Positions 6,941-21,269 of a stretch of 64,000 nt of DNA are shown one piece after another. The stretch's first letter is position 1, and each line of letters begins with the position of its first letter. The position numbers were made by a program, and so were the translations under genes. The notes beneath the pieces are model-generated. The model was not told where the DNA came from. It did not search any database and saw only the letters and a program-made list of their open reading frames with translations. The DNA comes from a virus: positions 1-64,000 of IMG/VR virus record IMGVR_UViG_3300020156_000004. One strand, written 5' to 3'.

Positions 6941-9900
6941 ATGAAATATCTATTAATCTTTTTAATTTCCCTCACTACGTGCTTCGGGGGATATGCCCAA
7001 TTCAATTCCTTCCAAGAGATTAAGGACTATAACGATCAGAATATAACCACGAATGGAACCAAGGCCATTACGGGTTCAAAACTGAATCTTGCCTTAAATG
7101 GGGGTTTTAAATTCTTCCATGACAATTACTTCAAAAAAGCCGAGACGGATGCAAGGTTTGCCTTTAAAAACCATACGCATCCAATTTCTAGTGTTCAGGG
7201 GTTACAAGATACCAATACTAACCTGAGGACAGATATTGAATGGTTGAAGGCTAATTTGGAAGTAGGAGGTGCCGCCAATATATCGGGAGACGTAAATACC
7301 ATATTATATCGAACCGCGGATGGGGCGGCTGGAAACAGTAAATTAGGATTTGACCCGGCTAATCATACCCTACGATTAGGAAACGCCTTTAATTCCTTTA
7401 ATGGAACCCCGGCTTCTGACCGATGGATAATGAGCATAGGAGAACTAAATACCTATGATGCCGGAACCGAGGCAGCTATAATAGTGGGATATAACAACGT
7501 ATCAAAGGTATCAAGGGGTGCGATATTCGGAAGTAATAATACCGCAAATGGCTCTGCATCCGGAGTAGACCTAGATAATTCATTCATTGCGGGTGAAGGT
7601 AATAATATCCAATGGAGATACTCTTTTGCTATGGGCCTTCAAAACCAACCCGGTTATCAAGGCTTAGCATTAGGAACCTGGAACCAATCTACCATAGGAT
7701 TAGGAAACTCCGGAACCAATCACATGTTGGGAAACTATCTAACTTCCAAATACCCTAATTCGGTTATAACCGGTGTATCAAATAATCTAACCGAGATTGA
7801 TGCAAGAATCGGAAATGTAGATAGCGTAGCCTTCGCAGTGGGAGCCGGAACAGATGCTTCAAATAGAAAGACCGCAATTTTAGTAGCAAGGGGTGGAGAA
7901 AGAATTTGGTTTCCTCAATTAGCCGATGCAGGTAATGATACCACCGTCTTGGCCTTGGATGAGAACGGAATGTTGATAACCAAGACCGCTACGGGAGTTG
8001 CCGGAGAATCACCCCTAACCTTCCAAGCACCCTTGAATAGGGTGGGTAATGAAATAGGAATTAATGTAGTGGGAGTAGATAACGGGGTTATCACTCCAAC
8101 CATGAAAACCACATGGGATGGTAAACAAGATGCAATTACCTGGGCTAATGTAACCGCAGCCTCCAATAAGGTAACTTTAGGAGGTACTCCAACCGGCTCA
8201 GTTAAATCAGCCTTTAGCATTGACATTAATGAGAGCAATCTAACCCTGAATAATATAGGGGGAGTTTTGGGAGTTGCCAAAGGAGGTTTAGGTTCATTAA
8301 CTCTAACGGGTAATGGTGGTAAATACGTTAAGGTAAATTCGGGTGGAACCGGATTTGAATTAGCCACTGTATCGGGTGCAGGTATTCAAAGCGTAGTTGC
8401 TGGAGATAATGTAACCATAGATAATACTGACCCAGCAAATCCAATTATTAATGCAACTGCCGCAGAATCTGCAGTAACTTCATTATTTGGTAGAGTGGGT
8501 GATGTGGTTGCAGTATCTGGAGATTATAATACTTCCCAAGTAACGGAGAATACAAACCTCTACTTTACCGATGCAAGAGCAAGAGCCGCAATATCCGTTA
8601 CTGCTCCTCTGACCTATAATCCAGGTACAGGGGCTCTTGGAATGACCGCTTCTTCAACTGGAGTGGCAGGGTATTTAACCTCTGCTGATAGAGCTACTTT
8701 ATTCGCAAAAGAACCGGCAATAACCGCAACAACTGCGTTTGATTATTATAGGGGTGATAAAACCTTTGCAACCCTTAATACCGCAGCAGTTCCTGAATCC
8801 GGAGCAAACCAATACTTCACCAATGCCAGGGCCAGGGGTGCAATATCCCTGACTACCACAGGAACATCTGGAGCCGCTAGTTATAATTCGTCTACTGGGG
8901 TCTTAAACATACCCCAATATTCAGGAGGTGGAGTTCAAACAGTTACTGCCGGAACGAACATATCAATAACCGGAACTTCAACGAACCCCGTAATTAATGC
9001 TACAGGTAGCTCAGGAAACGCGGTTAATATAACATTGGCGGGATTAGATGCTTGTACACCCTGTCAAACTACTCTACCCTTTTATATTACAGATGCAAAT
9101 AAGGAAGGGTACTTTAGGTATGCAGGAACTGTTGCAAACCAGACTACAGATAATGGGGTAACTAGAGTTGTGAGTGCTGATCTTAAAGCTTATGATCGAG
9201 TATACGATGGAACTTTAAATGCCCTTTGGTTTGGTATGGTTCCCGGATTATCAGATGGAACCACCCGGGCTAATAACGTAGCTGCGTTTAATGCAATGGT
9301 GGCGGTAGCAACTGATGAACAATGGATGAAAATACCTAAAGTAGAAGGCAAAGATTATTATACTTCTGGACCTCTGGTAATGAACTCAGAATCCAAAAAG
9401 TACAGATTAAGAATTGAAGCTACAATCATCAGTGCGGGTGATGGGGTTATAATGGAGGGTTTCGGACACCAACTAGAATCTTTAGGAGAGATTCTTGGGC
9501 CTAACTCCGGAGCTAGTGATTCGGCCAGTTTTGCTGCATATACCAATGATGGTCTATATTTCAGGAACTGTGATAAATGTGAAGCTCGGGTATTCAGGGT
9601 TAGGGAATTTAAAAATGGGGTAGTATTTGCTGGGGAATCTACCGCTAATCCTCAAGGAACCCAATATTGCAAATTGTGGTATACACAGATTAGAGGTAAT
9701 TATCGCCAAATATATATCACTACTCGGGGGACTACCGGAAGCACTGGCGGAACCGCTCAATCAGGTAACTGGAGCAACTCCAATATAGTTTATGGGGGTC
9801 AGGTAGGAGGCGGTTTAACTGAGGCAGGAGGTACATTCGGAATAGTAATTAAAAGAGAGCCCTCATCTAACCAGGGATTTAACTCGGGGGGTGGAAACCC

Positions 9901-11845
9901 ATTCAATCAGAATTACTTCTTCCATACCGGATTTGAAGGATTACGTTGGGGTATTTGGGCAGAGAACGCAGACTTTAACTATTGGATAGGTGGTAGATGG
10001 GAAGGTGGAGCAGTTACCAATAAAATATATCTTAGAGAAAGCACTGCTGCCAACCCAGCCACTAATACTGCTATAGGTGAGAATGCCTATGCAAACTCCC
10101 TCATCGGCTTCAAGATGAGTGAGAGTTACTTTACACAAGGGGGATTCGGAATAGGAACCTCTCTGAGTGGAGGAGTAATGTTAGAAGCCGATGGTAATAT
10201 AACTGGTAATATAACATTACCTAATTCTACCGGATTACTTACCAGCATAGCGGGGGATGATTCACCTTCTGCCTTTGAAAATAGTACCCATAATATGATT
10301 ACCTTGGGAGGCTTTACCACTACAGCCACTACCCATACTAATCATAATTATAGGTATGCAATGCACTATAAGAGGCATGGCTATTTCTCTGATCTTTACG
10401 TACCATTCGAGTTACTCGCTACAACTGTATCATCCAATTACACGGTTGCAGATACCGTAAATGACGTTGTTGTTACTGCTGCCGCTAATGTTGCTTTACC
10501 CGGACCAACCAATTGGCAAAGAAGAAAGATTACGGTTAGATCGGGTCTAACCTCAGGGACTGATGGAGTAACAGTATCAGGTTCAATTAAGTCAGGGGAT
10601 TTTACCGCTATACCCGGAGGAGCTGCGGTAACATACGAAGCAATAGGTTCAGAATGGGTAGCTGTTTCTAGCTTGGGTACCAGCCTAAGTGGAGGTGGAG
10701 GCGGTGGAGATAATGGAGATATAAGTATTGGGGCTTTCTCATTAACAGGAAATGCCAATGGCTTATCTAATAACCCAACCTTAGTTCTCCACGGTGCAAC
10801 CCGAACTACTCCAGGCGGAATCGCTGCTGAATACCAGGTAATAGGGGGAACCAAGAGAATTGAAAACTCGACTGGAGGCCTAACCCATGCTATTGAACTG
10901 GGAATAGGGGATGGAAACTCAGAGATAGAAATTGCCAGGGCAGGAACAACCGGTAATGCCTGGGTATCCTTTCAAAATGCCGCTGCTTCGGGTTCAACAC
11001 AACAATGGAATATGGGTATGGCAACTGGTACCAGTACCTTTGCTATTAGAAATGCCCAATCAGCTTCCAATGTGTTTAGCATATCCGCTTCTAATGGAAA
11101 CATATCAGTAGGCTCTGCTGCTCCAGGTACGGATAAGTTAACAGTGAATGGTACGGGTAAATTTACCAGCACCCTTAAATTAGCAAAAGGAACCAATGCA
11201 GTACCCCCATTATTATTTGACCCAACTTCAGATGCTTCCCTGACCGTAACCCAACCAGGAGCAATGGAGTTTGATGGTGAGAACTTCTTCCTGAGCTCAG
11301 TTCTTTCCGGTGCGAATGTTAAACAAACCATCTTAACCAACTCCAATGATGTAGATATTACCGGAGATAAAACATGGATGGCAAACCCAATTACTCCGGG
11401 TAAAATTCATGGAACCTCTACAGAACCAGGAATGGTATTAACCACTCTTGGAAATGTAACAGGAGCACATTGGGCTAGGAATGAGGGAGGCTTCTTATTA
11501 TTCGCAGAAACTACCGCTCAGACTTCGGCAGAGAACCTTGCTACTGTAACTCTACCGGCTAACAAAGGTATGGAGGTAGAAGTGATTGTGATAGGTAAAA
11601 GATCAGATAATACGAACCTATGGAGAGAACATCGTATTATAGGATATGCAACAACAGCCTCAACCTCCGCAGTAAAAACCTCTACCGTAGTATCAGCCCA
11701 TACTTCGGATTTCACACCCGCTGCCGGGGTATCATATAGCACCGGTGGGGGATTAACATTCACGGTTTCAGTAAGCTCTGCCGGAACAGAGAGTGTACAA
11801 TGGACCGCATATATCAAGGTTAGACCAACATTCACCCTAGAATAA
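6941..11845 (+). CDS. giant tail fibre/tailspike-like protein with N-terminal signal peptide and a pectate-lyase-like beta-helix region
   Basis: The track ORF starts at 6887, inside the terminator. The ATG at 6941 gives MKYLLIFLISLTTCFGGYA|Q. There is one HxH fibre motif (NHTHPISSVQGLQ) and two YFT-x-ARAR-x-AIS modules. LNALWFGMVPGLSDGTTRANNVAAFNAMV at about 9.2 kb resembles the start of depolymerase beta-helix domains. Confidence 0.6.
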   Translation: MKYLLIFLISLTTCFGGYAQFNSFQEIKDYNDQNITTNGTKAITGSKLNLALNGGFKFFHDNYFKKAETDARFAFKNHTHPISSVQGLQDTNTNLRTDIEWLKANLEVGGAANISGDVNTILYRTADGAAGNSKLGFDPANHTLRLGNAFNSFNGTPASDRWIMSIGELNTYDAGTEAAIIVGYNNVSKVSRGAIFGSNNTANGSASGVDLDNSFIAGEGNNIQWRYSFAMGLQNQPGYQGLALGTWNQSTIGLGNSGTNHMLGNYLTSKYPNSVITGVSNNLTEIDARIGNVDSVAFAVGAGTDASNRKTAILVARGGERIWFPQLADAGNDTTVLALDENGMLITKTATGVAGESPLTFQAPLNRVGNEIGINVVGVDNGVITPTMKTTWDGKQDAITWANVTAASNKVTLGGTPTGSVKSAFSIDINESNLTLNNIGGVLGVAKGGLGSLTLTGNGGKYVKVNSGGTGFELATVSGAGIQSVVAGDNVTIDNTDPANPIINATAAESAVTSLFGRVGDVVAVSGDYNTSQVTENTNLYFTDARARAAISVTAPLTYNPGTGALGMTASSTGVAGYLTSADRATLFAKEPAITATTAFDYYRGDKTFATLNTAAVPESGANQYFTNARARGAISLTTTGTSGAASYNSSTGVLNIPQYSGGGVQTVTAGTNISITGTSTNPVINATGSSGNAVNITLAGLDACTPCQTTLPFYITDANKEGYFRYAGTVANQTTDNGVTRVVSADLKAYDRVYDGTLNALWFGMVPGLSDGTTRANNVAAFNAMVAVATDEQWMKIPKVEGKDYYTSGPLVMNSESKKYRLRIEATIISAGDGVIMEGFGHQLESLGEILGPNSGASDSASFAAYTNDGLYFRNCDKCEARVFRVREFKNGVVFAGESTANPQGTQYCKLWYTQIRGNYRQIYITTRGTTGSTGGTAQSGNWSNSNIVYGGQVGGGLTEAGGTFGIVIKREPSSNQGFNSGGGNPFNQNYFFHTGFEGLRWGIWAENADFNYWIGGRWEGGAVTNKIYLRESTAANPATNTAIGENAYANSLIGFKMSESYFTQGGFGIGTSLSGGVMLEADGNITGNITLPNSTGLLTSIAGDDSPSAFENSTHNMITLGGFTTTATTHTNHNYRYAMHYKRHGYFSDLYVPFELLATTVSSNYTVADTVNDVVVTAAANVALPGPTNWQRRKITVRSGLTSGTDGVTVSGSIKSGDFTAIPGGAAVTYEAIGSEWVAVSSLGTSLSGGGGGGDNGDISIGAFSLTGNANGLSNNPTLVLHGATRTTPGGIAAEYQVIGGTKRIENSTGGLTHAIELGIGDGNSEIEIARAGTTGNAWVSFQNAAASGSTQQWNMGMATGTSTFAIRNAQSASNVFSISASNGNISVGSAAPGTDKLTVNGTGKFTSTLKLAKGTNAVPPLLFDPTSDASLTVTQPGAMEFDGENFFLSSVLSGANVKQTILTNSNDVDITGDKTWMANPITPGKIHGTSTEPGMVLTTLGNVTGAHWARNEGGFLLFAETTAQTSAENLATVTLPANKGMEVEVIVIGKRSDNTNLWREHRIIGYATTASTSAVKTSTVVSAHTSDFTPAAGVSYSTGGGLTFTVSVSSAGTESVQWTAYIKVRPTFTLE

Positions 11846-11853
11846 TATTAACT

Positions 11854-12831
11854 ATGAAAAGAATACTTATATTTCTGATTCTGGCCCTCCCCTTTGTGGG
11901 GGGAGCCCAGACTGCGGCATGGACCGCTAAAACAATTCCTGGTTCTTATACCAAAGCCTATGGATGCGCTAATGGAGGTTTTCAGGTAGCCTTCATGGAG
12001 GTAATGCACCAATTCGTAAAGGATGAAAGAGCCTCTAATAAGGTAGGTAAACGGAAGTTTCCCCTAATCATTTTCCTTCATGGAATAGGGGAGCGTAGTG
12101 GGAGTGCAACGTCAGCAAGGGGAAATCCAGCAACGTTAGCCGATCTATTCACTACGAACTTAATGAGTGGATTACAATATACCACTTCATCCCTATATGT
12201 ATATACTTTTAAAAATCCAGATGGAAGTCGAGAATACCCGATATGGTGGGCTCCACAATGTTGGGGTGGACATAGCTTTTTCTACCCTACTTATATCGAG
12301 GCCATGCTTGACTACGCTGAGGATGAATACTCGGATATAATCGACTTTGATAGGGTATATTTAACTGGGTTATCTTTTGGAGGGGGTGGTACAATGATTG
12401 CTGCTCAATATCACCCAGTATCAAGAAGGTTAACTGCTATTGCTCCTAACGTATCTGGGTATTATACTTATAATACTGGAACCTCATGCCAATTTCCTGA
12501 CCATCTAAATTTTGCTGAAATCAAGGCTAATAAGATTCCGGTATTTGCAAATCATGACCAAGCCGATGCAACTACCGGAGGTTCCGGAGTTACAGATAAT
12601 TTTGTTAGAAGGCTCCTTGAAGTTAAGCATAGTTCTCCCATTATATACACTGCCTTTAATAATTCACCCATGACTGACGACCATAGGATTTGGAATTATA
12701 TGTACAGTACCGGAAACTGGAATACCCAATTTACCCTAAGAAACGGAACCACCCATTACTTTGGGGGAACCAATGGAAAGAACTTCGTTGATTGGTTTTT
12801 ACAATTCAGTAGACCTCCACGCCCCGAATAG
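11854..12831 (+). CDS. secreted alpha/beta-hydrolase (esterase-like)
   Basis: Signal peptide MKRILIFLILALPFVGGA|Q, an oxyanion-region-like FLHGIGERSG, and a nucleophile elbow G-L-S-F-G-G (GxSxG). Confidence 0.6.
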   Translation: MKRILIFLILALPFVGGAQTAAWTAKTIPGSYTKAYGCANGGFQVAFMEVMHQFVKDERASNKVGKRKFPLIIFLHGIGERSGSATSARGNPATLADLFTTNLMSGLQYTTSSLYVYTFKNPDGSREYPIWWAPQCWGGHSFFYPTYIEAMLDYAEDEYSDIIDFDRVYLTGLSFGGGGTMIAAQYHPVSRRLTAIAPNVSGYYTYNTGTSCQFPDHLNFAEIKANKIPVFANHDQADATTGGSGVTDNFVRRLLEVKHSSPIIYTAFNNSPMTDDHRIWNYMYSTGNWNTQFTLRNGTTHYFGGTNGKNFVDWFLQFSRPPRPE

Positions 12832-12878
12832 GCATCCTTGCATACGACACTGAATCCATATTAATAAACTTTTCATTT

Positions 12879-13358
12879 ATGGCAAATATTAAATTAAAAT
12901 TGGGGCCTAATGCTCGTAACTTCTCAAGTGCACTGAGCAATTTTTCAATCTCTGGCAATCAGGTAAAAGAACTTGATAAGGGTCTATACATCAGGGATGG
13001 CCTGATTCAGGATGCAGTTAAAGGAGGCCATCTTCAAATTGTAGAGGATGAGATTAAAGAGGACCTGGGGAGTTTGGAGCAAGATGATGATGATACCTCT
13101 ACCGATTATACCCAGGACACGGGGGATGATGATACCGAAGATGATGATACCGAAGATACCGAAGATGATGAGGAAGACGAAGATACCGAAGATGATGAGG
13201 AAGACGAAGATACCGATGATGAGGAAGAAGGCCCTGAAACTAAATCGGAGTTCATTGATGCCTTGAAAGAACTTCCTCTTAGCAATAAGGATAAGAAAGA
13301 CCTGGCTAAAAAAGACCTCAAAGAATTACAAGCTCTGTACGCTAAATACAAAAAATAA
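12879..13358 (+). CDS. highly acidic protein (central D/E/T-rich tract)
   Basis: 159 aa ORF. The central roughly 60 aa are almost entirely D/E/T. The flanks are ordinary and the C-terminus is helical and K-rich. Confidence 0.6.
   Translation: MANIKLKLGPNARNFSSALSNFSISGNQVKELDKGLYIRDGLIQDAVKGGHLQIVEDEIKEDLGSLEQDDDDTSTDYTQDTGDDDTEDDDTEDTEDDEEDEDTEDDEEDEDTDDEEEGPETKSEFIDALKELPLSNKDKKDLAKKDLKELQALYAKYKK
13155..13230 (+). repeat. 27-nt tandem repeat (about 2.8 copies) inside the acidic gene
   Basis: gataccgaagatgatgaggaagacgaa is identical at 13155-13181 and 13182-13208. A third copy follows with a 3-nt deletion and a variant 3' end. The unit encodes DTEDDEEDE. Confidence 0.9.
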
Positions 13359-14074
13359 TGGCAATTCCAACAGCAGCTTTCACCTTTACTGACTCACTGG
13401 ATAGAACCGTCACCTTCAAGGACGGTTCTTCTGGTAGTCCGACCTCCTGGAGTTGGGACTTCGGGGATAGCTCCTCATCCACAGACCAGAATCCCGCTGC
13501 CCATGTTTATGCAGCTGATGGGGTATATAAGGTGAAGCTTACCTCAACCAATGTAGATGGCTCCACATCCTTTGAATATGAAATCGTGGTAGTAAACGGA
13601 ATGTTAGTGATTGGGTCAATAGCCCAATTAGTGAAAGATGAATTACCCACGGGAGTAACCATATCCGATATGGCTATCCAAAATGCCATGAGGAACTGGA
13701 TGGTTATTATGAAGGATGCGGACAAATTAGAAGATGCTGACCAATTCAATCAGGCTAAATACCGCCCTGTAACCCGACTCCTTATAGCCCGATTAATAAT
13801 CTATGAAAAGATTGTTCAACAGGCTCAGGGGGGATTGGTTCAAATGGGGGGTTCAAATGCCGGAGGTTTAAAAGCCGTAGAGATAGGACCGGCAAGAACC
13901 GAATGGTATAATGAAAGTGAGAGTTGGAAATCAGCACTCCAAACTGGGGGCTCAGTAGAATTATTGACCTCATCATTATGTGGATTAGCCGGAGAAGTAG
14001 GCATCCATCTTCCTATGTGTAGAAAAACCAAACACGTTCTATTACCTAAAGTATATTACCCATGCCGTCGTTAA
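13358..14074 (+). CDS. PKD-domain protein (N-terminal PKD/Ig-like fold, C-terminal connector-like region)
   Basis: FTFTDSLDRTVTFKDGSSGSPTSWSWDFGDSSSSTDQNPAAHVYAADGVYKVKLTSTNVDG matches the PKD domain consensus (WxWDFGDG...NPxHxY..G.Y.V.L). Confidence 0.7.
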   Translation: MAIPTAAFTFTDSLDRTVTFKDGSSGSPTSWSWDFGDSSSSTDQNPAAHVYAADGVYKVKLTSTNVDGSTSFEYEIVVVNGMLVIGSIAQLVKDELPTGVTISDMAIQNAMRNWMVIMKDADKLEDADQFNQAKYRPVTRLLIARLIIYEKIVQQAQGGLVQMGGSNAGGLKAVEIGPARTEWYNESESWKSALQTGGSVELLTSSLCGLAGEVGIHLPMCRKTKHVLLPKVYYPCRR

Positions 14075-14511
14075 TTAATGGTGTAGAATGGGCAGCCTTC
14101 AAACAATCCCAGGCCAATATATGGGACACCTTCGGACTCAGGACAATGACTTGGGTAAGAAGGACCAAGAATGTGGGTAGATTCAATGAGGGAGACTTTA
14201 CTTCTACAACTGAAACCCTAAGGTTTATTGCTCATCATAATATCCTGAGAACCTGGCCCATTGATTATAATACAGAATCCGGGGAATTGGATAGGCAAAC
14301 TGTTCAGGTATATATCTTCAAACAATATCTGGCCGATCTGGGTTTCATTGATGGCAATGGTAAATTCATTTATAACCGGGATATAGACCGATTCATCATA
14401 GATGGTGAAACCTACGAACCCGAAGGAGATACCCCAGCTGCCCAGGCAGGAATAGAAGATTTATGGTTCACTATGGTTCTTAAAAGAGATAATAAACCAA
14501 CCAGTGGCTAA
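14062..14511 (+). CDS. head-tail joining/head-closure-like protein
   Basis: 149 aa ORF. The call rests on position and the C-terminal pattern DRFIIDGETYEPEG...LWFTMVLKR, typical of small head-tail adaptors. Confidence 0.4.
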   Translation: MPSLINGVEWAAFKQSQANIWDTFGLRTMTWVRRTKNVGRFNEGDFTSTTETLRFIAHHNILRTWPIDYNTESGELDRQTVQVYIFKQYLADLGFIDGNGKFIYNRDIDRFIIDGETYEPEGDTPAAQAGIEDLWFTMVLKRDNKPTSG

Positions 14512-15106
14512 TTCATTAAAACAATCGCAATTAAGAAGAGCCGGAAGGAATGAGGAAGGAGACTATGCCGGATATGCTATGCGATTCCGGTTGGTTGGGG
14601 AATGGAAAAGAACTATGGATGTTATCCAGAGACTACCCAACTCCATGAAAGAATCTTCCCTGAATGCCCAGATGAAACTTGGGGAAGAGGTAATAAAGAG
14701 AGTAAAAGCTCACCTTCGCAAACAGGACTTACCTTGGCCTCCTTTACATTCAGATACCCAGGCTAAGAAATCAAGAGCAGATTTAGACCCAAGGGCTTTG
14801 ATTGCCTATGGTAGTTATTACCATAATATCAAGGTATGGAGGGTAGGTTCACAGAAGACTGTACTGATTGGAGTGAAACCGGGAATATACACCCGGACTT
14901 ACATGGGTAAGAGATCAAAGATAGACATTGCTCGAATCGCCGCTATCCATGAGTTTTCATCCGGTAAGAGAGTTCCTAAGAGACCTCTATGGAATCCTAC
15001 AATAAGAGAAATGGGTGGAGCCCAAGGTTTCAAAGACCAATTTTTAAAATCATTCAAAGCCTATTTAAGAAGGGCTGGTATACCCTTTAAACACCTTAAA
15101 TTATGA
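14504..15106 (+). CDS. HK97 gp10-like neck/tail-completion protein
   Basis: IHEFSSGKRVPKRPLWNPT resembles the EFG-x(3-5)-P-x-RPF-x-P motif of the HK97 gp10 family. Its ends overlap the neighbouring genes. Confidence 0.45.
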   Translation: MANSLKQSQLRRAGRNEEGDYAGYAMRFRLVGEWKRTMDVIQRLPNSMKESSLNAQMKLGEEVIKRVKAHLRKQDLPWPPLHSDTQAKKSRADLDPRALIAYGSYYHNIKVWRVGSQKTVLIGVKPGIYTRTYMGKRSKIDIARIAAIHEFSSGKRVPKRPLWNPTIREMGGAQGFKDQFLKSFKAYLRRAGIPFKHLKL

Positions 15107-16062
15107 TTAATCAAGATGAGCTGATACAAACTCTAATCGAAAGGTCTTTAGAGGATGCACTTAGGGCTGAGTTAGTAGCTGAAGGATACTTACCCGACTA
15201 TACGATCTATACTACTGATGCTGCATGGAAAACCCAATTAAATGTTATACGGGGAACTCACGGATTTGCTATTGAGGTTTTTGGGCATAGCAACTCACAA
15301 GATAAGGGAACTAAACAGGTTCCCCGTTTCGTATTTATCCCCGGCAAAACAGTGCCCGGGGATGTTGGTTTAGAGTTCTCCCCGGTATACGAGCAGGTAA
15401 AAACTGGAGAAACAATAGATCATTGGATTAAGAATAGAATACCCTATGAGACCGCTAACTTCCAATTTGAACTCCACATAGTTTGTGAGAGTGCGAAGCA
15501 GCATAGAATAATGCACCATATTTATAACAAGGTAATAGGTGCCCGGAGATTCATGAAACTTTATAATGACCCGACACAATTATTCTTTCAAGAACAAATA
15601 GGCTTCTATGATCAACCCGACACGATTGATGGAATTACAGAGGTCGTCTACCAACACGAGGTTAAAGACCTTTATGCACATGCTCCAATTGCCCTTGGTA
15701 CGATTGCTAAAATCACGGAGATCAACCTCGAGATTACCCCTATGGGATTGGCCCGGTTACTTGAGAACGGCACCCTCACGGAAGAAGCTCCATTTGAAGT
15801 TCACACCCTTAAAGTAGACCCACACATGATGGTAGAAAGATTCTATACCCATACCGGGGCTGATAGTGATACCTCCGGAGTTATTGCCAACTTATCGACG
15901 GCGGCATTCGTAGGAATAGAAAGGGGAACTAAACCTATAAAGAGGTATACCGGAGTTGGAGCTCCACCCATAGGTCAATATAAGATCAACAATGATAATA
16001 CCCTGACCATTAACCCCATAATGAGGACGGGAGAAGAATTACATTTACTCATGCAAATATAA
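15103..16062 (+). CDS. hypothetical virion (neck/tail terminator region) protein
   Basis: 319 aa ORF whose start overlaps the stop of the upstream gene. No motif recognised. Confidence 0.5.
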   Translation: MINQDELIQTLIERSLEDALRAELVAEGYLPDYTIYTTDAAWKTQLNVIRGTHGFAIEVFGHSNSQDKGTKQVPRFVFIPGKTVPGDVGLEFSPVYEQVKTGETIDHWIKNRIPYETANFQFELHIVCESAKQHRIMHHIYNKVIGARRFMKLYNDPTQLFFQEQIGFYDQPDTIDGITEVVYQHEVKDLYAHAPIALGTIAKITEINLEITPMGLARLLENGTLTEEAPFEVHTLKVDPHMMVERFYTHTGADSDTSGVIANLSTAAFVGIERGTKPIKRYTGVGAPPIGQYKINNDNTLTINPIMRTGEELHLLMQI

Positions 16063-16069
16063 CCCAGAA

Positions 16070-18607
16070 ATGAAAAGGATTTTACTGATATTCTTCTTAG
16101 GATTAATCTATACATTTGGGCATGCCCAGGTCCCTCTAGTTCAACGATTAGGACAAGATACGTTAATCATTGAAGGAAACGGATATAAGGACACTACGAA
16201 TGTCTATATGTTCATTCAGGGTTACCAGGATTCTAATACAGTCTTGGCAAATCTAGGGAATGGACGATTGGCATTTATGTCAATGGCCGGGGGTGGACCT
16301 CATACACATACCATAGGACAGGTTACTGGATTGCAAACCGCCTTAGATGGGAAGGCCTCAACAGGACACAACCATAATGGAGTATACTCCCCGGTAGGTC
16401 ATGGCCATGCTGTATCAGATATAACCAATCTCCAAACCCTATTGGACGGTAAAGCCGCAACTTCCCATACTCATGGCCAAGGAGACATAACAAACCTTAT
16501 TGCTGATTTATCAGAGAAAGCCGATGCAGACCACAATCATGACGGATTCTATTCTTTAATTAACCATGACCATAATTCATTATATGCTGCCCTTAATCAC
16601 AATCATGATGCAGCATATGCCGCATTAAACCATAACCACAATTCTCTCTATGCGATCATAGCCCATCATCATGACACGGTATATGCTGCCATAGATCATG
16701 ACCACGATGGAGTATATCAACCCGCTGGCTCTTATGCTGCTTCAAGCCATGGACATGCTATTTCTGAAATCACAAACCTTCAAACAACTCTTGATGGTAA
16801 GGCGGCATCCAACCACAATCACGATGCTGCGTATTCGGCTATAAACCATAATCATGATGCTGATTACTCGGATATAAACCATAACCACAACTCCGATTAC
16901 TTAGATATTGATGCCACTACTTCGGATATTGAAGAAGGAACAAATCAATATTTCACACAGGCCAGAGCAAGAGGAGCTATTTCTTTAACGACTACCGGAA
17001 GTGGAGCTGCAACATATAACTCTACCACGGGAGTCCTGAACATTCCTATTGCAGGCTCAGGTGGAAGTGAATCAACGGCATGGGGTAATATCCCAGGTAC
17101 TCTATCAGACCAGACCGATCTTCAAACCGCATTGGATGGAAAATCGGATGTAGGCCATGACCACGATGCGGATTATGCTGCAATAGATCATAACCATGAT
17201 GCCGCTTATTCTGCAATAGGTCATAATCACAATGGGGTATATGCTACTGTCAGCCACTCCCATGCAATATCTGATGTAACCAACTTACAAACTACATTAG
17301 ATGGTAAAGCATCATCTACCCATAACCATGATGGAACTTATCAACCCGATGATGCAGACCTAGACATATATGCAGGGATTACCGCGGGAACCGCTATTCA
17401 AAGCCTATTGGATTTAGATAATCCCTCAGCCATAAGATTCATTAGGATTGAATCAAATAACACAGCTTCTTTTAGAACTACCGCCCAGGTATTATCAGAC
17501 ATAGGTGCCGCAGCCTCTGGACATAACCATGATGCTACTTATGCAGCTATAAGCCATAGCCATGCAATAAGTGATGTTACAAACTTACAAACTACATTAG
17601 ATGGAAAGGCCAGTACATCACATAATCACGACGGAGCTTATTCTGCTATAGGCCATAATCACGATGCTGATTATCTGGATATTGCCGCATCCACTTCTGA
17701 TATTGAGGAAGGAACAAATCTATACTTTACTAATGAAAGAGCCCAGGATGCACTTGCCGCAGCAATAGCCGCAGGAACTCATGACGGTATAGACATAACT
17801 TATAATGATGTTAGTAATACCCTATCCTTTGATGTAACAGTATCAGGTGGAAGTGAGTCTACCGCTTGGGGAAACATACCTGGAACCCTGAGTGACCAAA
17901 CAGATTTACAAACTGCATTGGATGGAAAGGCATCAACCTCACATAACCATGACGCAGCATACTCTGCTATAGGACACAACCATGATGGAACCTATGCAAC
18001 TGCTGGACATAATCATGATGGAGTATACCAACCGGATGATGCAGATTTAGATACCTGGGCTGGAATAACTCCAGGTACCGGAGTAGGAACCTTTCTGGCT
18101 ACCCCATCTTCGGTAAACCTTGCCACCGCAGTAACGGGAGAAACAGGGTCAGGAGCTTTGGTATTTGCAACATCACCAACCTTAACAAACCCAAATCTAG
18201 GAACCCCATCAGCAATTACCCTGACCAACGGAACCGGACTTCCACAATCGGGAGTAACAAATCTAACCACTGACTTGGCTGCGAAGGCTCCTACATCTGT
18301 AACCTGGAATTTTCAAACTGGAACATCTTATACTCTTGTAGGAGCAGATGCCTATAAGATTGTTGATTGTACAAATGCCGCTGCAATAACTTTAACTATT
18401 CCACCCAACGGTACGGAACCCTTTGCAGTAGGTACACAAATTACCATTCGTCAAGGAGGAGCTGGACAGGTAACTATCGCACCAGGAAGTGGAGTAACAT
18501 TGGAAGCCCCAGATAGCAAATTGAAAACAAGAGCTCAATATTCACCCATTACCTTAATTAAAAAAGCAACAAACACATGGGCTATTATGGGAGATACTGC
18601 CTCGTAA
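16070..18607 (+). CDS. tail fibre protein with a large His-x-His repeat array and signal peptide
   Basis: Signal peptide MKRILLIFFLGLIYTFGHA|Q. I count about 26 HxH motifs (GHNHDG, SHSHAI and similar), interspersed with I-S-D-[IV]-T-N-L-Q-T-x-L-D-G-K. It also has YFT-x-ARARGAIS modules. Confidence 0.7.
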   Translation: MKRILLIFFLGLIYTFGHAQVPLVQRLGQDTLIIEGNGYKDTTNVYMFIQGYQDSNTVLANLGNGRLAFMSMAGGGPHTHTIGQVTGLQTALDGKASTGHNHNGVYSPVGHGHAVSDITNLQTLLDGKAATSHTHGQGDITNLIADLSEKADADHNHDGFYSLINHDHNSLYAALNHNHDAAYAALNHNHNSLYAIIAHHHDTVYAAIDHDHDGVYQPAGSYAASSHGHAISEITNLQTTLDGKAASNHNHDAAYSAINHNHDADYSDINHNHNSDYLDIDATTSDIEEGTNQYFTQARARGAISLTTTGSGAATYNSTTGVLNIPIAGSGGSESTAWGNIPGTLSDQTDLQTALDGKSDVGHDHDADYAAIDHNHDAAYSAIGHNHNGVYATVSHSHAISDVTNLQTTLDGKASSTHNHDGTYQPDDADLDIYAGITAGTAIQSLLDLDNPSAIRFIRIESNNTASFRTTAQVLSDIGAAASGHNHDATYAAISHSHAISDVTNLQTTLDGKASTSHNHDGAYSAIGHNHDADYLDIAASTSDIEEGTNLYFTNERAQDALAAAIAAGTHDGIDITYNDVSNTLSFDVTVSGGSESTAWGNIPGTLSDQTDLQTALDGKASTSHNHDAAYSAIGHNHDGTYATAGHNHDGVYQPDDADLDTWAGITPGTGVGTFLATPSSVNLATAVTGETGSGALVFATSPTLTNPNLGTPSAITLTNGTGLPQSGVTNLTTDLAAKAPTSVTWNFQTGTSYTLVGADAYKIVDCTNAAAITLTIPPNGTEPFAVGTQITIRQGGAGQVTIAPGSGVTLEAPDSKLKTRAQYSPITLIKKATNTWAIMGDTAS

Positions 18608-19413
18608 TATTACTTACCCTATTATCATTCATAGGGTTCGGGCAACATTTTAGTAGAGTAGGTCCGGTTGCAATGCCGGTCCAAACTGGAGGCGGAGGTG
18701 GGGGAACTGGAACTGTAAGTTTTGTAAATGAGGCCAGCAGCCTTGCAATGGGTACCACATCATTATCAGTACCTCTACCTCCAAGCCGGGTAGTTGGAAA
18801 CATAATGGTAATGATTGTGGTAAATAAATACCCGCCAAATGGGGGTACAGTTACTCCAACCGGATGGAGTACGTTTACAAACAATCAAGCGGAGAACTCA
18901 GGGTTAACTGCGGGTGCAGCAAATGGTAATACCCGCACTACAGTATTCTATCGGATTATAGATGGAAGTGAATCGGGTAACGTATCAGTTACCATGACCA
19001 GTGCGAATGTAAGTATAGGTTGGATATTGCAATTTAGTAAATCCGCTGGTACCTGGGCTGTTGCAGGAGCAACCGGAGCAGATAACACTCACAATGGAAC
19101 CACAAGCTTTGATTTAAATACTGACCCGGGATTTACAACCGGGGATATGGCTGTAATGGCTGCAGCTATCAACATGACTACCGGAGTGGCAGTATTAGGG
19201 GAATCTGCAACCTTAACTGTTCCCGGAATTACTGCTTGGTCAGCTCAAAGTGGTAACACAGATAACTCAACCACCGGGGATGATATTAGGTTGTTCTATT
19301 TATACAAGGGAGTAACCACAGGAACCTCATCAGGTATACCTTCCTATTCACATACCATAACTCAAAACTCAGCTACCTCAATGGTACTGGTTAGATTAAG
19401 AGCCCAATTATGA
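18577..19413 (+). CDS. hypothetical fibre-associated protein (possible signal peptide; start ambiguous)
   Basis: The long form begins MGYYGRYCLVILLTLLSFIGFG|Q and overlaps the upstream gene by 31 nt. An alternative in-frame ATG lies at 18673. A Gly6 tract is followed by a beta-rich sequence. Confidence 0.5.
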   Translation: MGYYGRYCLVILLTLLSFIGFGQHFSRVGPVAMPVQTGGGGGGTGTVSFVNEASSLAMGTTSLSVPLPPSRVVGNIMVMIVVNKYPPNGGTVTPTGWSTFTNNQAENSGLTAGAANGNTRTTVFYRIIDGSESGNVSVTMTSANVSIGWILQFSKSAGTWAVAGATGADNTHNGTTSFDLNTDPGFTTGDMAVMAAAINMTTGVAVLGESATLTVPGITAWSAQSGNTDNSTTGDDIRLFYLYKGVTTGTSSGIPSYSHTITQNSATSMVLVRLRAQL

Positions 19414-21269
19414 AAATTCTATTCACGTTCTTACTTAGTTTAATATCTATGCTGGGCATAGCCCAGGCTCCGCTAGTCAACTATTTCGGTCAAGATACTG
19501 CGATCTTTCAGGGAGACGAATATGAGACGACTACGGAGATATATTTCATGATGCCGGGATTTCAGGATTCCGGCTTTGTTATGAACATAGGGGGTGGTAG
19601 ATTAAAATTCGTTCACAAGGATAGTCTGAATCTTGGAGGTACTCCGACATGGGGTACTATAGAAGGAGACCCAGCAGATCAAACAGATTTGATGGCTCTA
19701 CTAAATGCCAAGGCACCCATTAATAATGCTACTTTCACTGGGACAACCACAACCGGGTTCTTATTCACAAACTCCTCTGGTAGTACAAATTCAGATTTAG
19801 CGGTATGGGCTGGAACTGCCCAGAGTAATAGCAATTCAAACCTTCAATTTAAAGGTAGTACAAACACCCTATCAAGAATATGGGAAAGGGGTGATGCCTT
19901 CCCAACCATTACCAATGGATATGCTTATGTAGGTCATGCAATAGGTAGACAAGGAGTAACAGAGCCATCCTCTGGAAGTATACCCCTAATATCCGCCTTA
20001 GGAATCAGAGCTCCCAATGTAGTTAATGGTGGAGCTGAGGTAACAAATGCAGCCACTGTATATATTGAGGATTCCACGGTAGTATCAACCACCGGAGGCA
20101 GTTTTGCTCTCTGGGTAGATAATGGCCTAGTTAAATTCGATGGAGACCTTAATGTAGATGGGACTATAACTAATCCGGGTTTAACCTCGGCATTAGCGGG
20201 TAAAGCAAATATCTCTCATACCCATGAGATTGAGGATATAACTAACTTACAAACCACCTTAGATGGAAAAGCTAATACATCACATGACCATGATGGAGAT
20301 TATGCAACCACATCCCATACTCATGCCCAGTCAGATATAACCAACCTAGTTACAGATTTAGGTAATAAGGCTCCCATCAATGATGCCTCTTTAACCGGAA
20401 CCTTGAAGATAGGGGGTGGAGTAACTACCACCATACTTGATGGAAATGGAAGTACATTCTCACCACAAACTATATTAAGCAATACCTCTCAAGCAGGCTT
20501 TGCAGTATATGCTAACGATGGAACTTTGAATGGGAGGGTAGGATTATTCATGGATGCTACCAACTCCCTGGGCGGTATATCCATGACACAGGGTGGAAGT
20601 TCATTTCCTTTTGTTATAAGAAACTCGGGGGGCGAGAGATTAAGGATAAATGCCAATGGTACACTGAAGTTAAATGCCTATGGAATTTCTAATGGCCTAT
20701 TGGTAACTAATGGAAGTGGGGATGTATCGAGTGTAAATCTTTCAGGAACCGGAATTAGATTATTGACCGCGGCTGCTGATGGTTCGTTGGGGTCAATCAC
20801 TATGCCAAGCTTACCCTACATAGTGAGGATGGGTTCAGATTATCAAACTCCATCGGGTGCAGCAGCAGGTTCATTAAATACGGTAACTGATTTTGGATTT
20901 CCAGTCCTAGCAAACAAGACTTACAAATTCTCAATATATGCGGTATATGAGCCTGACCCCGGTAGCTCTACAACTAATGGGGCAGGATTTTCTCTTTCAG
21001 GCCCTGCTGCTAACTTTGCATCTGCCTTAATATACCAACAGGATGTTTCTACCATAACATTCTTGGATTATAATATGAGGGCTTTTGGAAATACCAGTGG
21101 ATTATCTACTGGCTCCCTATCCACGGGTAACCTGGTTTTTATTAATGGAACCGTAAGTTGCTCCTCATCAGGTACAGTATCTTTATCAGTTGCCTCGGAA
21201 CTAGCTGGGCCATCGTATATAAAAATTAAAGCCAATGCCTCTTGGATTGAGTACCAACAATTAGATTAA
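19410..21269 (+). CDS. tail fibre protein, N-terminal paralog of the 16070 gene, with signal peptide
   Basis: Signal peptide MKILFTFLLSLISMLGIA|Q. Residues 20-70 align with 16070 (PLV..FGQDT.I..G..Y..TT..Y...G.QDS........GRL.F). There are three HxH motifs and an ITNLQTTLDGKA motif. Confidence 0.65.
   Translation: MKILFTFLLSLISMLGIAQAPLVNYFGQDTAIFQGDEYETTTEIYFMMPGFQDSGFVMNIGGGRLKFVHKDSLNLGGTPTWGTIEGDPADQTDLMALLNAKAPINNATFTGTTTTGFLFTNSSGSTNSDLAVWAGTAQSNSNSNLQFKGSTNTLSRIWERGDAFPTITNGYAYVGHAIGRQGVTEPSSGSIPLISALGIRAPNVVNGGAEVTNAATVYIEDSTVVSTTGGSFALWVDNGLVKFDGDLNVDGTITNPGLTSALAGKANISHTHEIEDITNLQTTLDGKANTSHDHDGDYATTSHTHAQSDITNLVTDLGNKAPINDASLTGTLKIGGGVTTTILDGNGSTFSPQTILSNTSQAGFAVYANDGTLNGRVGLFMDATNSLGGISMTQGGSSFPFVIRNSGGERLRINANGTLKLNAYGISNGLLVTNGSGDVSSVNLSGTGIRLLTAAADGSLGSITMPSLPYIVRMGSDYQTPSGAAAGSLNTVTDFGFPVLANKTYKFSIYAVYEPDPGSSTTNGAGFSLSGPAANFASALIYQQDVSTITFLDYNMRAFGNTSGLSTGSLSTGNLVFINGTVSCSSSGTVSLSVASELAGPSYIKIKANASWIEYQQLD

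What the first reader, a model, noticed from the sequence alone, without database searches (positions are those of the whole stretch)
6941..21269. Five fibre-region proteins carry Sec-type signal peptides that end in A|Q or G|Q
The N-termini are MKYLLIFLISLTTCFGGYA|Q, MKRILIFLILALPFVGGA|Q, MKRILLIFFLGLIYTFGHA|Q, (M..)CLVILLTLLSFIGFG|Q and MKILFTFLLSLISMLGIA|Q. All have the n-h-c organisation of signal peptidase I substrates. All have Gln at +1, which is the reported Bacteroidetes 'Q-rule' (pyroglutamate N-termini). Tailed-phage virions assemble in the cytoplasm, so exported fibre/tailspike-like proteins are unexpected. They could be secreted or surface-displayed products such as free depolymerase, decoys or exclusion factors. 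They could also be membrane-staged assembly intermediates. Alternatively the hydrophobic leader may have another role.
Basis: partly seen in the sequence, partly recalled or inferred. Interest (0 to 1): 0.75.

Follow-up and report, generated by a model that had tools for sequence, protein, structure and literature searches.

The report
Phage fibre-like proteins with export signals
An uncultured tailed phage, probably of a Bacteroidota host, puts genuine host-type export signals on five large late-operon proteins (three fibre-like, one esterase, one beta-sandwich), so proteins built from virion tail-fibre parts are apparently sent to the host periplasm rather than kept in the cytoplasm where virions assemble.

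Summary
Five + strand genes (6941-11845, 11854-12831, 16070-18607, 18577-19413, 19410-21269) begin with n-h-c leaders that all end G-x-[A/G]|Q. A strict heuristic picks exactly these 5 of 64 ORFs (chance about 7e-6).

The leaders are translated and under selection. In a syntenic relative (L022, 59-69% protein identity) two orthologues keep the ATG, the hydrophobic core and A|Q through synonymous and conservative changes. A different cargo gene there also starts with an SP ending G|Q. The esterase orthologue carries a Tat-type RRHFLK leader instead of a Sec one, which argues that export itself is selected.

The five genes are accessory. They sit in two insertions, after the capsid gene and between neck and sheath. 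Thirty-one more distant relatives lack large SP-bearing structural-module genes.

The cargo mixes phage and host types. It includes tail-fibre repeats, a minor-tail-protein tip domain, a minor-tail-type beta-sandwich, and a serine esterase whose cellular homologues are secreted Bacteroidota enzymes. No type IX secretion C-terminal domain (T9SS CTD) or lipobox was found.

Best reading (about 0.5): these are periplasm-exported accessory factors that act on the envelope and are released at lysis. Main rival (about 0.22): fibres that join virions from the periplasm. Function remains unproven.

The parts
6941..11845 (+). p1, 1634 aa. The leader is 6941-6997 (19 aa, GYA|Q). It is a large fibre-like protein that shares repeat modules with p3. 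Its central and C-terminal parts have no detectable family.
   Evidence: Translation. The leader is conserved in the L022 orthologue (MKYLIIFVIALTSCFGGYA|Q; 4 synonymous and 6 non-synonymous codon differences in the first 25 codons; the substitutions inside the leader are conservative). The orthologue is 59% identical overall. A 49-aa module is 73% identical to p3. No Pfam, PHROG, NCBIfam or PDB hit. The single-sequence AF2 model was unusable (pLDDT 31).
11854..12831 (+). p2, 325 aa. The leader is 11854-11907 (18 aa, GGA|Q). It is a serine esterase of the alpha/beta-hydrolase fold, reduced to the catalytic domain.
   Evidence: Weak but consistent hits to feruloyl esterase 9j07 (E 3.8e-6), cutinase/PETase and PHB-depolymerase-family models. 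S174 in GLSFGG, D238, H277 and the HG motif are invariant in the alignment. By the strict rule, 78 of 97 homologues have an SP and 73 of those have Q at +1. Many homologues are Chitinophagaceae/Bacteroidota proteins with PKD and Por_Secre_tail domains. The L022 orthologue P0122 (66% identical) has an RRHFLK Tat-type leader.
16070..18607 (+). p3, 845 aa. The leader is 16070-16126 (19 aa, GHA|Q). A conserved ~70-aa N-domain is followed by PTR phage-tail repeats and a minor-tail-protein tip domain.
   Evidence: PF12789 PTR E 3.8e-43 and PHROG tail-protein families. The C-terminal ~110 aa are 45-52% identical to tips of Gordonia phage minor tail proteins. The start lies 8 nt after the stop of the preceding neck-adjacent gene (15103-16062). 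The leader is conserved in the L022 orthologue (MKRIILIFLLALGYVYGNA|Q; 7 synonymous and 9 non-synonymous codon differences in the first 25 codons; the substitutions inside the leader are conservative).
18577..19413 (+). p4, 278 aa. The leader is 18577-18642 (22 aa, GFG|Q). A Gly-rich linker is followed by a beta-sandwich domain of a large uncharacterised family.
   Evidence: 842 relatives in the exhaustive search. AF2 model pLDDT 84.7. No PDB match, but 40 BFVD matches at E<1e-3, including mycobacteriophage and Gordonia phage 'minor tail proteins'. The closest relative, P0218 (65% identical), has a different but canonical leader, MKKLILSLFISLSFITVFA|Q. The start overlaps the p3 stop by 31 nt.
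19410..21269 (+). p5, 619 aa. The leader is 19410-19463 (18 aa, GIA|Q). It has the same N-domain as p3, a PTR repeat and a unique C-terminal part.
   Evidence: PF12789 E 7.8e-10. The N-domain is 42-51% identical among p3, p5 and the L022 1241-aa protein. ATGA start/stop overlap with p4. No PDB hit.
21296..21859 (+). 187-aa gene of unknown function with no export signal. It lies in the same neck-sheath insertion, so its membership is uncertain.
   Evidence: Lies between p5 and the sheath gene. L001 has no counterpart at this position: its only ORF between neck and sheath is a 102-aa protein. No family hit.
15103..16062 (+). Neck-adjacent conserved virion protein (319 aa) immediately upstream of p3. 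It has a ~90-aa C-terminal extension shared with L022, a possible docking site if the fibres join the particle.
   Evidence: Homologues are 215-260 aa in most relatives but 319 and 325 aa in the window and L022. This is a co-occurrence only. L024 has an unrelated extension and no fibre genes.

Best explanation
The five genes are accessory late genes of a tailed, contractile-tail phage of a probable Bacteroidota host. Each carries a genuine, cleavable type I signal peptide.

Shown: the leaders exist, are far beyond chance, are translated, and are conserved as export signals in a relative. In that relative one Sec leader is replaced by a Tat-type leader. The genes sit in two insertions that more distant relatives lack. 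The cargo combines virion tail-fibre building blocks with a host-type secreted esterase. None has a T9SS C-terminal domain or a lipobox.

Inferred: during late infection the proteins are threaded through the host SecYEG, cut by signal peptidase I after G-x-A/G, and their new N-terminal Gln is cyclised to pyroglutamate by the host glutaminyl cyclase (the Q-rule pathway). They then accumulate in the periplasm, because they lack any recognised signal for crossing the outer membrane.

Most likely function (inference): there they act on envelope glycans, and after lysis they act outside the cell as free, N-terminally capped proteins. The esterase and the fibre-like binders or possible depolymerases would strip or mask receptor or capsule material. 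Progeny would then not be trapped on debris or on infected cells and could diffuse through the matrix. On this reading they are not parts of the cytoplasmically assembled particle.
For: - Leaders real and non-random: (5 of 64 ORFs; background 0.4%; 0 of 12,681 control positions with Q at +1).
- Leaders translated and selected: the ATG, the hydrophobic core and A|Q are kept in L022 through 4 and 7 synonymous codon changes plus conservative replacements. Gene packing is tight: 8-9 nt gaps, an ATGA overlap and a 31-nt overlap.
- Export itself is selected: the esterase orthologue P0122 (66% identical) has MDRRHFLK..APSA| in place of the Sec leader, while the mature parts align from the predicted cleavage sites. 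Pfam TAT_signal is its only N-terminal match (E 0.029 whole protein, 0.003 leader alone, below the gathering score).
- A non-orthologous L022 gene in the same slot (beta-helix-like, CBM96 + PKD) also starts MMKLLITFLLLAQVAIG|Q.
- Accessory status: L001 (capsid protein 60% identical) goes capsid, acidic protein, PKD, neck, sheath with none of the five genes. A further 23 + 7 relatives have no large SP genes in this module.
- A separate SP-less baseplate module exists, with hub, tape measure, gpV, gp25, gpJ and two unassigned distal proteins.
- Host-type export: by the strict rule, 78 of 97 esterase homologues carry an SP, 73 with Q at +1. Cellular homologues often add PKD + Por_Secre_tail, which the phage copy lacks.
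- No T9SS CTD or lipobox.
- The pattern recurs in other phage contigs: L047 (three consecutive SP|Q proteins, including an esterase), L050 (esterase next to a lysis cassette) and L021. A T7-like contig, L064, has five consecutive SP proteins after its SP-less tail-fibre gene. In T7 itself (textbook knowledge) no virion proteins are encoded at that position.
- Literature: more than half of Bacteroidetes SPI substrates have Q at +1 and it is cyclised (PMC5837995). Q-rule genes of unknown function occur in P. gingivalis prophages (PMC10367356). Sec-exported late phage proteins have a precedent in the fOg44 endolysin (PMC6116005).
Against: - No experimental or SignalP evidence of cleavage or export. 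The host is unknown.
- p3, p4 and p5 are made of parts that elsewhere belong to virion tail proteins.
- p3, p5 and the L022 1241-aa protein share a conserved N-domain directly after the cleavage site with variable distal parts. That is the pattern of virion-docked receptor-binding proteins.
- The genes are embedded in the structural operon. A sigma-70-type scan and a search for the Bacteroidota -7 motif found no promoter or terminator signal at the insertion borders.
- No catalytic domain could be shown for p1, p3, p4 or p5, so 'depolymerase' is unproven.
- They share no similarity with the SP-less distal baseplate proteins, so a decoy of the phage's own receptor-binding protein is not supported.
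Confidence: 0.5

Rival explanations
1. Periplasm-staged virion appendages. The fibre-like proteins (p1, p3, p5, perhaps p4) are exported, processed and folded in the periplasm. They dock on finished particles only when holin lesions or lysis mix the compartments. Docking would use the conserved N-domain and a site such as the C-terminal extension of the neck-adjacent protein. This would be an extracytoplasmic step in tailed-phage assembly.
For: The fibre building blocks are of virion type. The N-domain is conserved and the distal parts vary in p3, p5 and the L022 1241-aa protein. p3 starts 8 nt after the neck-adjacent gene, at the position where neck appendages or whiskers are encoded in other phages. 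The window and L022 neck-adjacent proteins carry a shared ~90-aa extension that most relatives lack. No promoter or terminator signal sets the genes apart from the structural operon.
Against: No precedent was found in the searchable literature. Attachment after dilution at lysis would be inefficient. The esterase and the L022 CBM96/PKD enzyme share the export trait but are not fibre-like. Relatives build particles without these genes. The T7-like L064 carries five SP proteins after its normal tail-fibre gene. The neck extension co-occurs with the fibre genes in only two related genomes, and L024 has an unrelated extension without fibres. The few Cys in p3-p5 remove the oxidative-folding rationale.
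Confidence: 0.22
2. Lysis or envelope-breaching accessories. The exported esterase, and perhaps its neighbours, prepare the envelope for lysis from the periplasmic side, as mycobacteriophage LysB esterases or Sec-exported endolysins do. Possible actions include de-esterifying wall or outer-membrane components.
For: p2 has an intact Ser-Asp-His triad with cutinase/PETase-like hits. Its homologue P0123 lies directly upstream of a holin/spanin/muramidase cassette in L050. In L064 the SP cluster abuts a probable lysis cassette, judged by eye from an M15/VanY-like sequence and a holin-like TM protein; that protein had no supporting family hit. Sec-exported endolysins are known (PMC6116005).
Against: In the window the putative lysis genes lie elsewhere, upstream of the terminase. 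None of the five has a peptidoglycan-hydrolase domain. This reading does not explain 600-1600-aa fibre-like proteins.
Confidence: 0.1
3. The leaders are not export signals. Either the true start codons lie downstream, or the hydrophobic N-termini stay attached and serve inside the particle or as membrane anchors.
For: One public gene call starts p5 at Met14. The p4 leader overlaps the end of p3 by 31 nt. No predictor or experiment was available.
Against: The leader codons show coding-type conservation with a conserved ATG. No alternative ATG lies near the cleavage sites of p1-p3. All five have a canonical G-x-A/G|Q site, and Q at +1 never occurred in 12,681 control positions. The Tat swap and the SPs on cellular esterase homologues at the same position argue for export. 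Four of five public gene calls include the leader.
Confidence: 0.06
4. Lysogenic-conversion or moron surface proteins, expressed from a prophage to change the host surface.
For: Q-rule genes of unknown function were reported in P. gingivalis prophages (PMC10367356). The genes are accessory insertions.
Against: About 74 of 84.6 kb were inspected. The ENA gene calls list no Pfam integrase hit, and I saw none by eye among the window ORFs. The replication-region proteins were not scanned against any family library. No promoter or terminator signal was found at the borders. Starts overlap or abut late structural genes.
Confidence: 0.05

Closest known systems
Bacteroidetes Q-rule substrates of signal peptidase I (Bochtler et al. 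2018, PMC5837995; PMC10653852)
   Same: n-h-c leader, small residues at -3/-1 and Gln at +1. The cellular homologues of the esterase show the same pattern (73 of the 78 with an SP).
   Different: The genes are encoded by a phage inside its structural operon. Pyroglutamate formation and the host phylum are inferred, not shown.
Q-rule-obeying genes of unknown function in Porphyromonas gingivalis prophages (Matrishin et al. 2023, PMC10367356)
   Same: Phage-encoded proteins predicted to use the host Sec/SPI pathway with Gln at +1. The authors interpreted them as phage adaptation to host secretion.
   Different: Those are genes of unknown function in temperate phages. Here the proteins are large (278-1634 aa), sit in the head-neck part of the late operon, and are built from tail-fibre repeats, minor-tail-type domains and an esterase. 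A Sec-to-Tat swap occurs in a relative.
Sec-exported and SAR endolysins (e.g. Oenococcus phage fOg44 Lys44; review PMC6116005)
   Same: Late phage proteins carry a bona fide signal peptide, are exported by the host Sec system and accumulate outside the cytoplasm while virions assemble inside.
   Different: No peptidoglycan-hydrolase domain is present. There are five proteins, and they are fibre-like or esterase cargo.
Envelope-targeted phage accessory proteins encoded next to receptor-binding genes (lambda Lom, T5 Llp, phi80/N15 Cor; from my own knowledge, not checked here)
   Same: Signal-peptide-bearing non-virion proteins encoded in or beside the tail-fibre region. Llp protects progeny from inactivation by receptor in debris, which is the kind of benefit proposed here.
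   Different: Those are small outer-membrane proteins or lipoproteins. These have no lipobox or beta-barrel signature and are homologous to virion fibres.
Virion tail fibres and minor tail proteins with PTR repeats (PF12789)
   Same: p3 and p5 contain PTR repeats. The p3 tip is 45-52% identical to Gordonia phage minor tail protein tips. The p4 fold matches minor tail proteins.
   Different: Only 1 of 120 PTR homologues and 18 of 150 p4-family representatives carry an SP. Virion fibres are made and assembled in the cytoplasm.

Membership tests
Type I (Sec/SPase I) signal peptide | Positively charged n-region, uncharged hydrophobic h-region of about 7-15 residues, and a c-region with small residues at -3 and -1 | tested here: met
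   All five pass a strict rule that fires at 0.4% of control positions. The sites are GYA|Q, GGA|Q, GHA|Q, GFG|Q and GIA|Q.
Type I (Sec/SPase I) signal peptide | Actual translocation and cleavage, or the score of a trained predictor | not testable with these tools
   SignalP/DeepTMHMM are not available and no proteomics exists. Indirect support comes from leader conservation and the Tat swap.
Bacteroidetes Q-rule substrate | Gln at +1 of the SPI site | tested here: met
   5 of 5 in the window and 3 of 3 Sec leaders in L022. 0 of 12,681 control positions.
Bacteroidetes Q-rule substrate | Host is a Bacteroidota member with a periplasmic glutaminyl cyclase, and the N-terminus is pyroglutamate | not testable with these tools
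   The host is unknown. The inference rests on three points: Chitinophagaceae/Bacteroidota esterase homologues, Q at +1 in 73 of the 78 homologues with an SP, and enrichment of the TAnnTTTG -7 motif (78 versus 57 +/- 7.6).
Tat signal peptide (L022 esterase orthologue P0122) | Twin-arginine motif (S/T)RRxFLK followed by a moderately hydrophobic h-region and an AxA-type site | tested here: inconclusive
   The motif DRRHFLK is present, with the h-region LGGLAGLSLPF and the site PSA|. Pfam TAT_signal scores 14.8-17.8 bits, below the gathering score of 22.7.
T9SS cargo | C-terminal sorting domain (TIGR04183/TIGR04131/PF18962) | tested here: not met
   No hit in any of the five at E<=0.05 (NCBIfam) or E<=0.01 (Pfam). 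Many cellular esterase homologues do have PF18962.
Lipoprotein (SPase II substrate) | Lipobox with Cys at +1 | tested here: not met
   The +1 residue is Gln in all five. The only Cys in a leader is at -6 of p1.
Virion tail fibre / minor tail protein | Homology to known tail-fibre repeats or domains | tested here: met
   p3 and p5 match PF12789 and PHROG tail families. The p3 tip matches Gordonia phage minor tail proteins. The p4 fold matches minor tail proteins in BFVD. p1 is linked only through modules shared with p3.
Virion tail fibre / minor tail protein | Physical presence in the particle, attached through an N-terminal anchor | not testable with these tools
   The N-domain has no detectable homologue. 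A neck-extension co-occurrence was noted. No proteomics exists.
Carbohydrate/serine esterase (alpha/beta hydrolase) for p2 | GxSxG nucleophile, Asp and His of the triad, and an oxyanion HG motif | tested here: met
   S174 (GLSFGG), D238, H277 and H76-G77 are invariant in 8 aligned homologues. Hits to the PDB feruloyl esterase and to NCBIfam/Pfam models are all below family cut-offs. The substrate is unknown.
Tailspike depolymerase (for p1) | Right-handed beta-helix catalytic domain | tested here: inconclusive
   No Pfam or PDB hit. The AF2 single-sequence model had pLDDT 31.
Secreted/SAR endolysin | Peptidoglycan hydrolase domain behind the leader | tested here: not met
   No such domain in any of the five.
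Moron | Own promoter and terminator flanking an inserted gene | tested here: inconclusive
   No sigma-70-like promoter, Bacteroidota -7 motif or terminator at the borders. The scans are crude.

The most novel reading that the evidence does not exclude
A tailed phage completes its particle outside the cytoplasm. Fibre proteins are exported through Sec, trimmed by signal peptidase I, capped with pyroglutamate and only then dock on the neck or head of cytoplasmically built virions, when holin lesions or lysis join the compartments. Clusters of exported proteins next to receptor-binding genes in unrelated phages, such as the T7-like L064, would then mark a wider, overlooked assembly or host-manipulation strategy.
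Probability: 0.2. Interest if true: 0.9.

Novelty: new variant of a known kind. Interest (0 to 1): 0.68.

Why it matters
Tailed-phage virions are taken to assemble entirely in the cytoplasm, and receptor-binding fibres are treated as cytoplasmic products. Here, homologues of such fibres are under selection to be exported. The evidence is conserved Sec leaders and a Sec-to-Tat swap in a relative.

If they act in the periplasm or as free proteins, phages have a class of exported receptor-binding or envelope-modifying factors derived from their own fibres. That bears on superinfection exclusion, escape of progeny from debris, biofilm penetration and host-range prediction, because such genes would be mis-annotated as virion receptor-binding proteins. 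If they join the particle, it would be a new assembly route.

There are practical consequences too. Gene callers can clip these leaders, as happened for p5. The Q-rule leaders also give a phylum-level host signal for uncultured phages.

Tried and rejected
- Near and protein-level searches of cultured phages with the region, p1, p4 and p5 found nothing useful. The phage has only distant relatives there.
- IMG/VR scans with p5 and p2 found nothing. Both metagenome scans found nothing.
- The profile search with the p3/p5 N-domain found nothing. The PDB profile search gave only noise.
- The genome-collection scan returned only MAG-binned phage contigs, so it gave no host assignment.
- The oxidative-folding rationale for export is rejected for p3-p5, which have 0-1 Cys.
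- A decoy of the phage's own baseplate proteins was looked for as similarity to the SP-less distal proteins and not found.
- T9SS secretion was tested for and not found.
- Independent transcription (a moron) has no support from the crude scans.
- An IMG/VR scan for p4 relatives showed mostly SP-less domains inside larger proteins of high-GC phages. The p4 family as such is therefore not an 'exported' family.
- A look-up of the window's 3' end gene failed.

Full report
**What is in the window.** The window is part of an 84.6-kb contig of an uncultured tailed phage (ENA ERZ27257314 k141_200166). It has no close relative among cultured phages.

Genes run almost entirely on the + strand. The order is: a membrane protein, terminase, a probable portal (assigned by position only), a 474-aa protein and a 154-aa protein of unassigned function, and the major capsid protein (5735-6847). 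Then come p1 and p2, an acidic protein, a PKD-domain protein, three neck/connector genes (14062-16062), p3, p4, p5 and a 187-aa ORF. After these lie the sheath (assigned by position and size), the tube (T4 gp19 family), baseplate hub, tape measure, gpV, gp25, gpJ, two unassigned distal proteins, and then probable replication genes, judged by eye only.

The five genes of the finding therefore lie in the head-neck part of the late operon. They are not in the baseplate/tail-fibre module.

**Checking the observation.** Every leader has K/R near the start, an uncharged hydrophobic core, Gly at -3, Ala or Gly at -1 and Gln at +1.

A strict rule-based test selects these five and nothing else among 64 + strand ORFs. 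The same test fires at 0.4% of 12,681 internal control positions, never with Gln at +1, and at none of 260 internal Met positions. This gives P of about 7e-6 for five or more hits, before the Gln or the clustering is counted. I could not run SignalP.

**Are the leaders translated?** Yes, with high confidence, for three reasons:
- The starts abut or overlap the preceding genes. The gaps are 9 nt (p2) and 8 nt (p3), p4 overlaps p3 by 31 nt, and p5 starts in an ATGA overlap with p4.
- L022 is a syntenic relative (JGI 3300068072, 77-kb contig; proteins 59-69% identical). Its orthologues of p1 and p3 start at the same ATG. Over the first 25 codons they differ from the window by 4 and 7 synonymous codon changes and 6 and 9 non-synonymous ones. 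The substitutions inside the leader are conservative and keep the hydrophobic core and the A|Q junction.
- Public gene calls include the leader in four of five cases. p5 was called from Met14.

**Is export the selected property?** Three comparisons say so.
- The esterase orthologue in L022 (P0122, 66% identical) has lost the Sec leader. It carries MDRRHFLKLGGLAGLSLPFNSIGNILAPSA| instead, an exact RRxFLK twin-arginine motif. The mature parts align from the predicted cleavage sites onward. Pfam TAT_signal is its only N-terminal match, but it scores below the gathering score. Swapping one export route for another makes sense only if reaching the periplasm is what matters.
- The gene after the p3 orthologue in L022 is not an orthologue of p4 or p5. 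It is a beta-helix-like protein with CBM96 and PKD domains, and it also starts with a leader ending G|Q.
- By the strict rule, 78 of 97 detectable esterase homologues carry an SP at the same position, 73 of them with Gln at +1. Many are Chitinophagaceae/Bacteroidota proteins with PKD and T9SS Por_Secre_tail domains.

The Q-rule is described as Bacteroidetes-specific, with more than half of SPI substrates exposing Gln that is cyclised to pyroglutamate (PMC5837995). Together with enrichment of the TAnnTTTG promoter element, this makes a Bacteroidota host likely. The host itself is not known.

**The genes are accessory.** L001 (capsid protein 60% identical) runs capsid, acidic protein, PKD protein, neck, sheath with none of the five genes. 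Twenty-three further relatives found through the neck-adjacent protein, and seven MAG-binned contigs found through the capsid protein, have no large SP-bearing protein in this module. Two of them have a small (~150-aa) SP|Q protein.

Under the same rule, two cultured Flavobacterium phages (FCL-2 and 11b) show only small lipoprotein- or SP-type genes. Published counts for cultured Bacteroidota phages are 0-2 per genome (PMC5723332, PMC4615864). Five in 14 kb is therefore unusual.

**What the proteins are.**
- p2 is a serine esterase of the alpha/beta-hydrolase fold with an intact Ser-Asp-His triad. It is reduced to the catalytic domain and lacks the PKD and T9SS tail of its cellular homologues.
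- p3 and p5 carry PTR phage-tail repeats.
- The last ~110 residues of p3 are 45-52% identical to the tips of minor tail proteins of more than 200 Gordonia phage records.
- p4 belongs to a large uncharacterised family (842 hits). Its confident AF2 model (pLDDT 84.7) has no PDB match but matches predicted structures of mycobacteriophage and Gordonia phage minor tail proteins.
- p1 shares repeat modules with p3 but is otherwise unassignable.
- p3, p5 and the L022 1241-aa protein share a ~70-aa domain directly after the cleavage site, followed by divergent distal parts. This domain has no detectable homologue.
- None of the five has a T9SS C-terminal domain or a lipobox. The predicted destination is therefore the periplasm.

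**Does it occur elsewhere?** Yes.
- Contigs from the same JGI project carry three consecutive SP|Q proteins, including an esterase homologue (L047/L048), or an SP|Q esterase next to a holin/spanin/muramidase cassette (L050).
- A PTR fibre homologue with an SP|Q leader sits beside an SP-less paralogue in L021.
- L064 is a T7-like contig. An internal-virion-protein gene and a tail-fibre gene with the T7 N-terminal anchor (no SP) are followed by five consecutive SP-bearing genes, one of them a p4-family member, and then by probable lysis genes. The same 271-aa and 565-aa gene pair lies beside a terminase in L062 and L063; there I checked the SP only on the 271-aa member.
- SPs remain rare on these families overall: 1 of 120 PTR homologues and 18 of 150 p4-family representatives. 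IMG/VR relatives of p4 are mostly SP-less domains inside larger proteins.

**Mechanism.** What is shown is the set of signals, their selection and the nature of the cargo.

What I infer is as follows. The proteins are exported late in infection by host SecYEG, or Tat for P0122. They are cleaved by signal peptidase I, capped by glutaminyl cyclase and retained in the periplasm until lysis.

I judge the most likely role (about 0.5) to be accessory and non-virion. On this reading the enzymes and glycan-binding fibres act on nascent or resident envelope polysaccharide from within, and act as free, stable proteins after lysis. This would reduce trapping of progeny on debris or on infected cells and ease spread.

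The points in favour:
- The particle is built without these genes in relatives.
- A normal SP-less baseplate set exists.
- Enzyme cargo shares the trait.
- The L064 cluster lies after a complete T7-type fibre gene.

The main rival (about 0.22) is that the fibres dock on virions from the periplasm at lysis. It is favoured by the virion-type building blocks, by the conserved N-domain with variable distal parts, by the position next to the neck genes, and weakly by a neck-protein extension shared by the window and L022.

Minor rivals are a lysis-accessory role, non-export and lysogenic conversion.

**Comparison with what is known.**
- Export signals on phage proteins are known for endolysins (fOg44 Lys44, SAR endolysins; PMC6116005).
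- They are also known for spanins and for small exclusion or outer-membrane proteins encoded near tail genes (from my own knowledge).
- Q-rule genes of unknown function were noted in P. gingivalis prophages (PMC10367356).
- About 5% of soil-prophage CAZymes have signal peptides (PMC13507307).
- My literature searches found no description of Sec or Tat leaders on large tail-fibre-type proteins inside a structural operon. The library is incomplete, so absence there is not proof.

I therefore class this as a new variant of a known kind.

**Verdict.** The reading as Q-rule Sec signal peptides is well supported. The biological role is open between two testable alternatives, one of which would be a real departure from textbook phage assembly.

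Noticed in passing
L064:6738-11991 (ENA ERZ27247783 k141_362773); also L062:484-2993 and L063:2133-4642: A T7-like phage contig has five consecutive signal-peptide-bearing genes (286, 131, 271, 565 and 489 aa). They lie between its SP-less tail-fibre gene and probable lysis genes. The same 271-aa and 565-aa gene pair lies next to a terminase in two other contigs, where the SP was checked only on the 271-aa member. Clusters of exported proteins beside receptor-binding genes are therefore not confined to Bacteroidota phages.
   Followed up: partly
L022:10001-11023 (protein P0122): The orthologue of the window's esterase carries a twin-arginine (RRHFLK) leader instead of the Sec leader. This is a Sec-to-Tat swap between two related phages.
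   Followed up: yes
window 1-64000: The Bacteroidota -7 promoter element TAnnTTTG occurs 78 times against 57 +/- 7.6 in shuffles (0 of 100 shuffles reach 78). This is consistent with a Bacteroidota host. None lies at the borders of the two insertions.
   Followed up: partly
window 15103-16062: The conserved neck-adjacent protein is 319 aa here and 325 aa in L022, but 215-260 aa in most relatives. The extra C-terminal ~90 aa are conserved between the two phages that carry the exported fibres. L024 has an unrelated extension and no fibres.
   Followed up: partly
window 8795-8941 (p1 residues 619-667) and 16931-17074 (p3 residues 288-335): A 49-aa module (..QYFT.ARARGAISLTTTG..YNS.TGVLNIP) is 73% identical between p1 and p3. 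This indicates module exchange among the exported proteins.
   Followed up: no
L065:5414-8153 (contig region just upstream of the window, minus strand): Early-region small genes encode a lipoprotein-type leader (MKPLLTAALLSLILAC|T), a signal-anchor protein and a further SP-like protein ending FA|QDS. These are candidates for early exclusion or envelope proteins.
   Followed up: no
window 105-779 and L065:9268-9816: A 224-aa membrane-anchored protein lies just before the terminase, and a 182-aa protein upstream of it occupies the place where relative L001 has a probable amidase-type endolysin (judged by eye) and a similar membrane protein. The lysis cassette probably lies there, away from the five exported proteins.
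   Followed up: partly
window 12879-13358 and 13358-14074: An extremely acidic protein with a D/E-rich repetitive centre is followed by a protein with an N-terminal PKD domain. Both are conserved in L001 and L022, so they belong to the core head module. Their decoration or scaffold role is unknown.
   Followed up: no
window 19410-19448: The public gene call for p5 (P0001, 606 aa) starts at Met14 and removes most of the leader. Automated annotation can hide this class of signal.
   Followed up: yes
window 21296-21859: A 187-aa ORF without an export signal or any family hit lies in the same neck-sheath insertion as p3-p5. L001 has no counterpart at this position. Its function is unknown.
   Followed up: no
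L024:4051-4491 and L032:1153-1605: Two more distant relatives encode small (~150-aa) SP|Q proteins in the head-neck module (MKVKFFLTLLMGFLSLLVFS|Q and MKKFFLFLVMALFSVTAFS|Q). Exported proteins in this module may be older than the large fibre-like ones.
   Followed up: no
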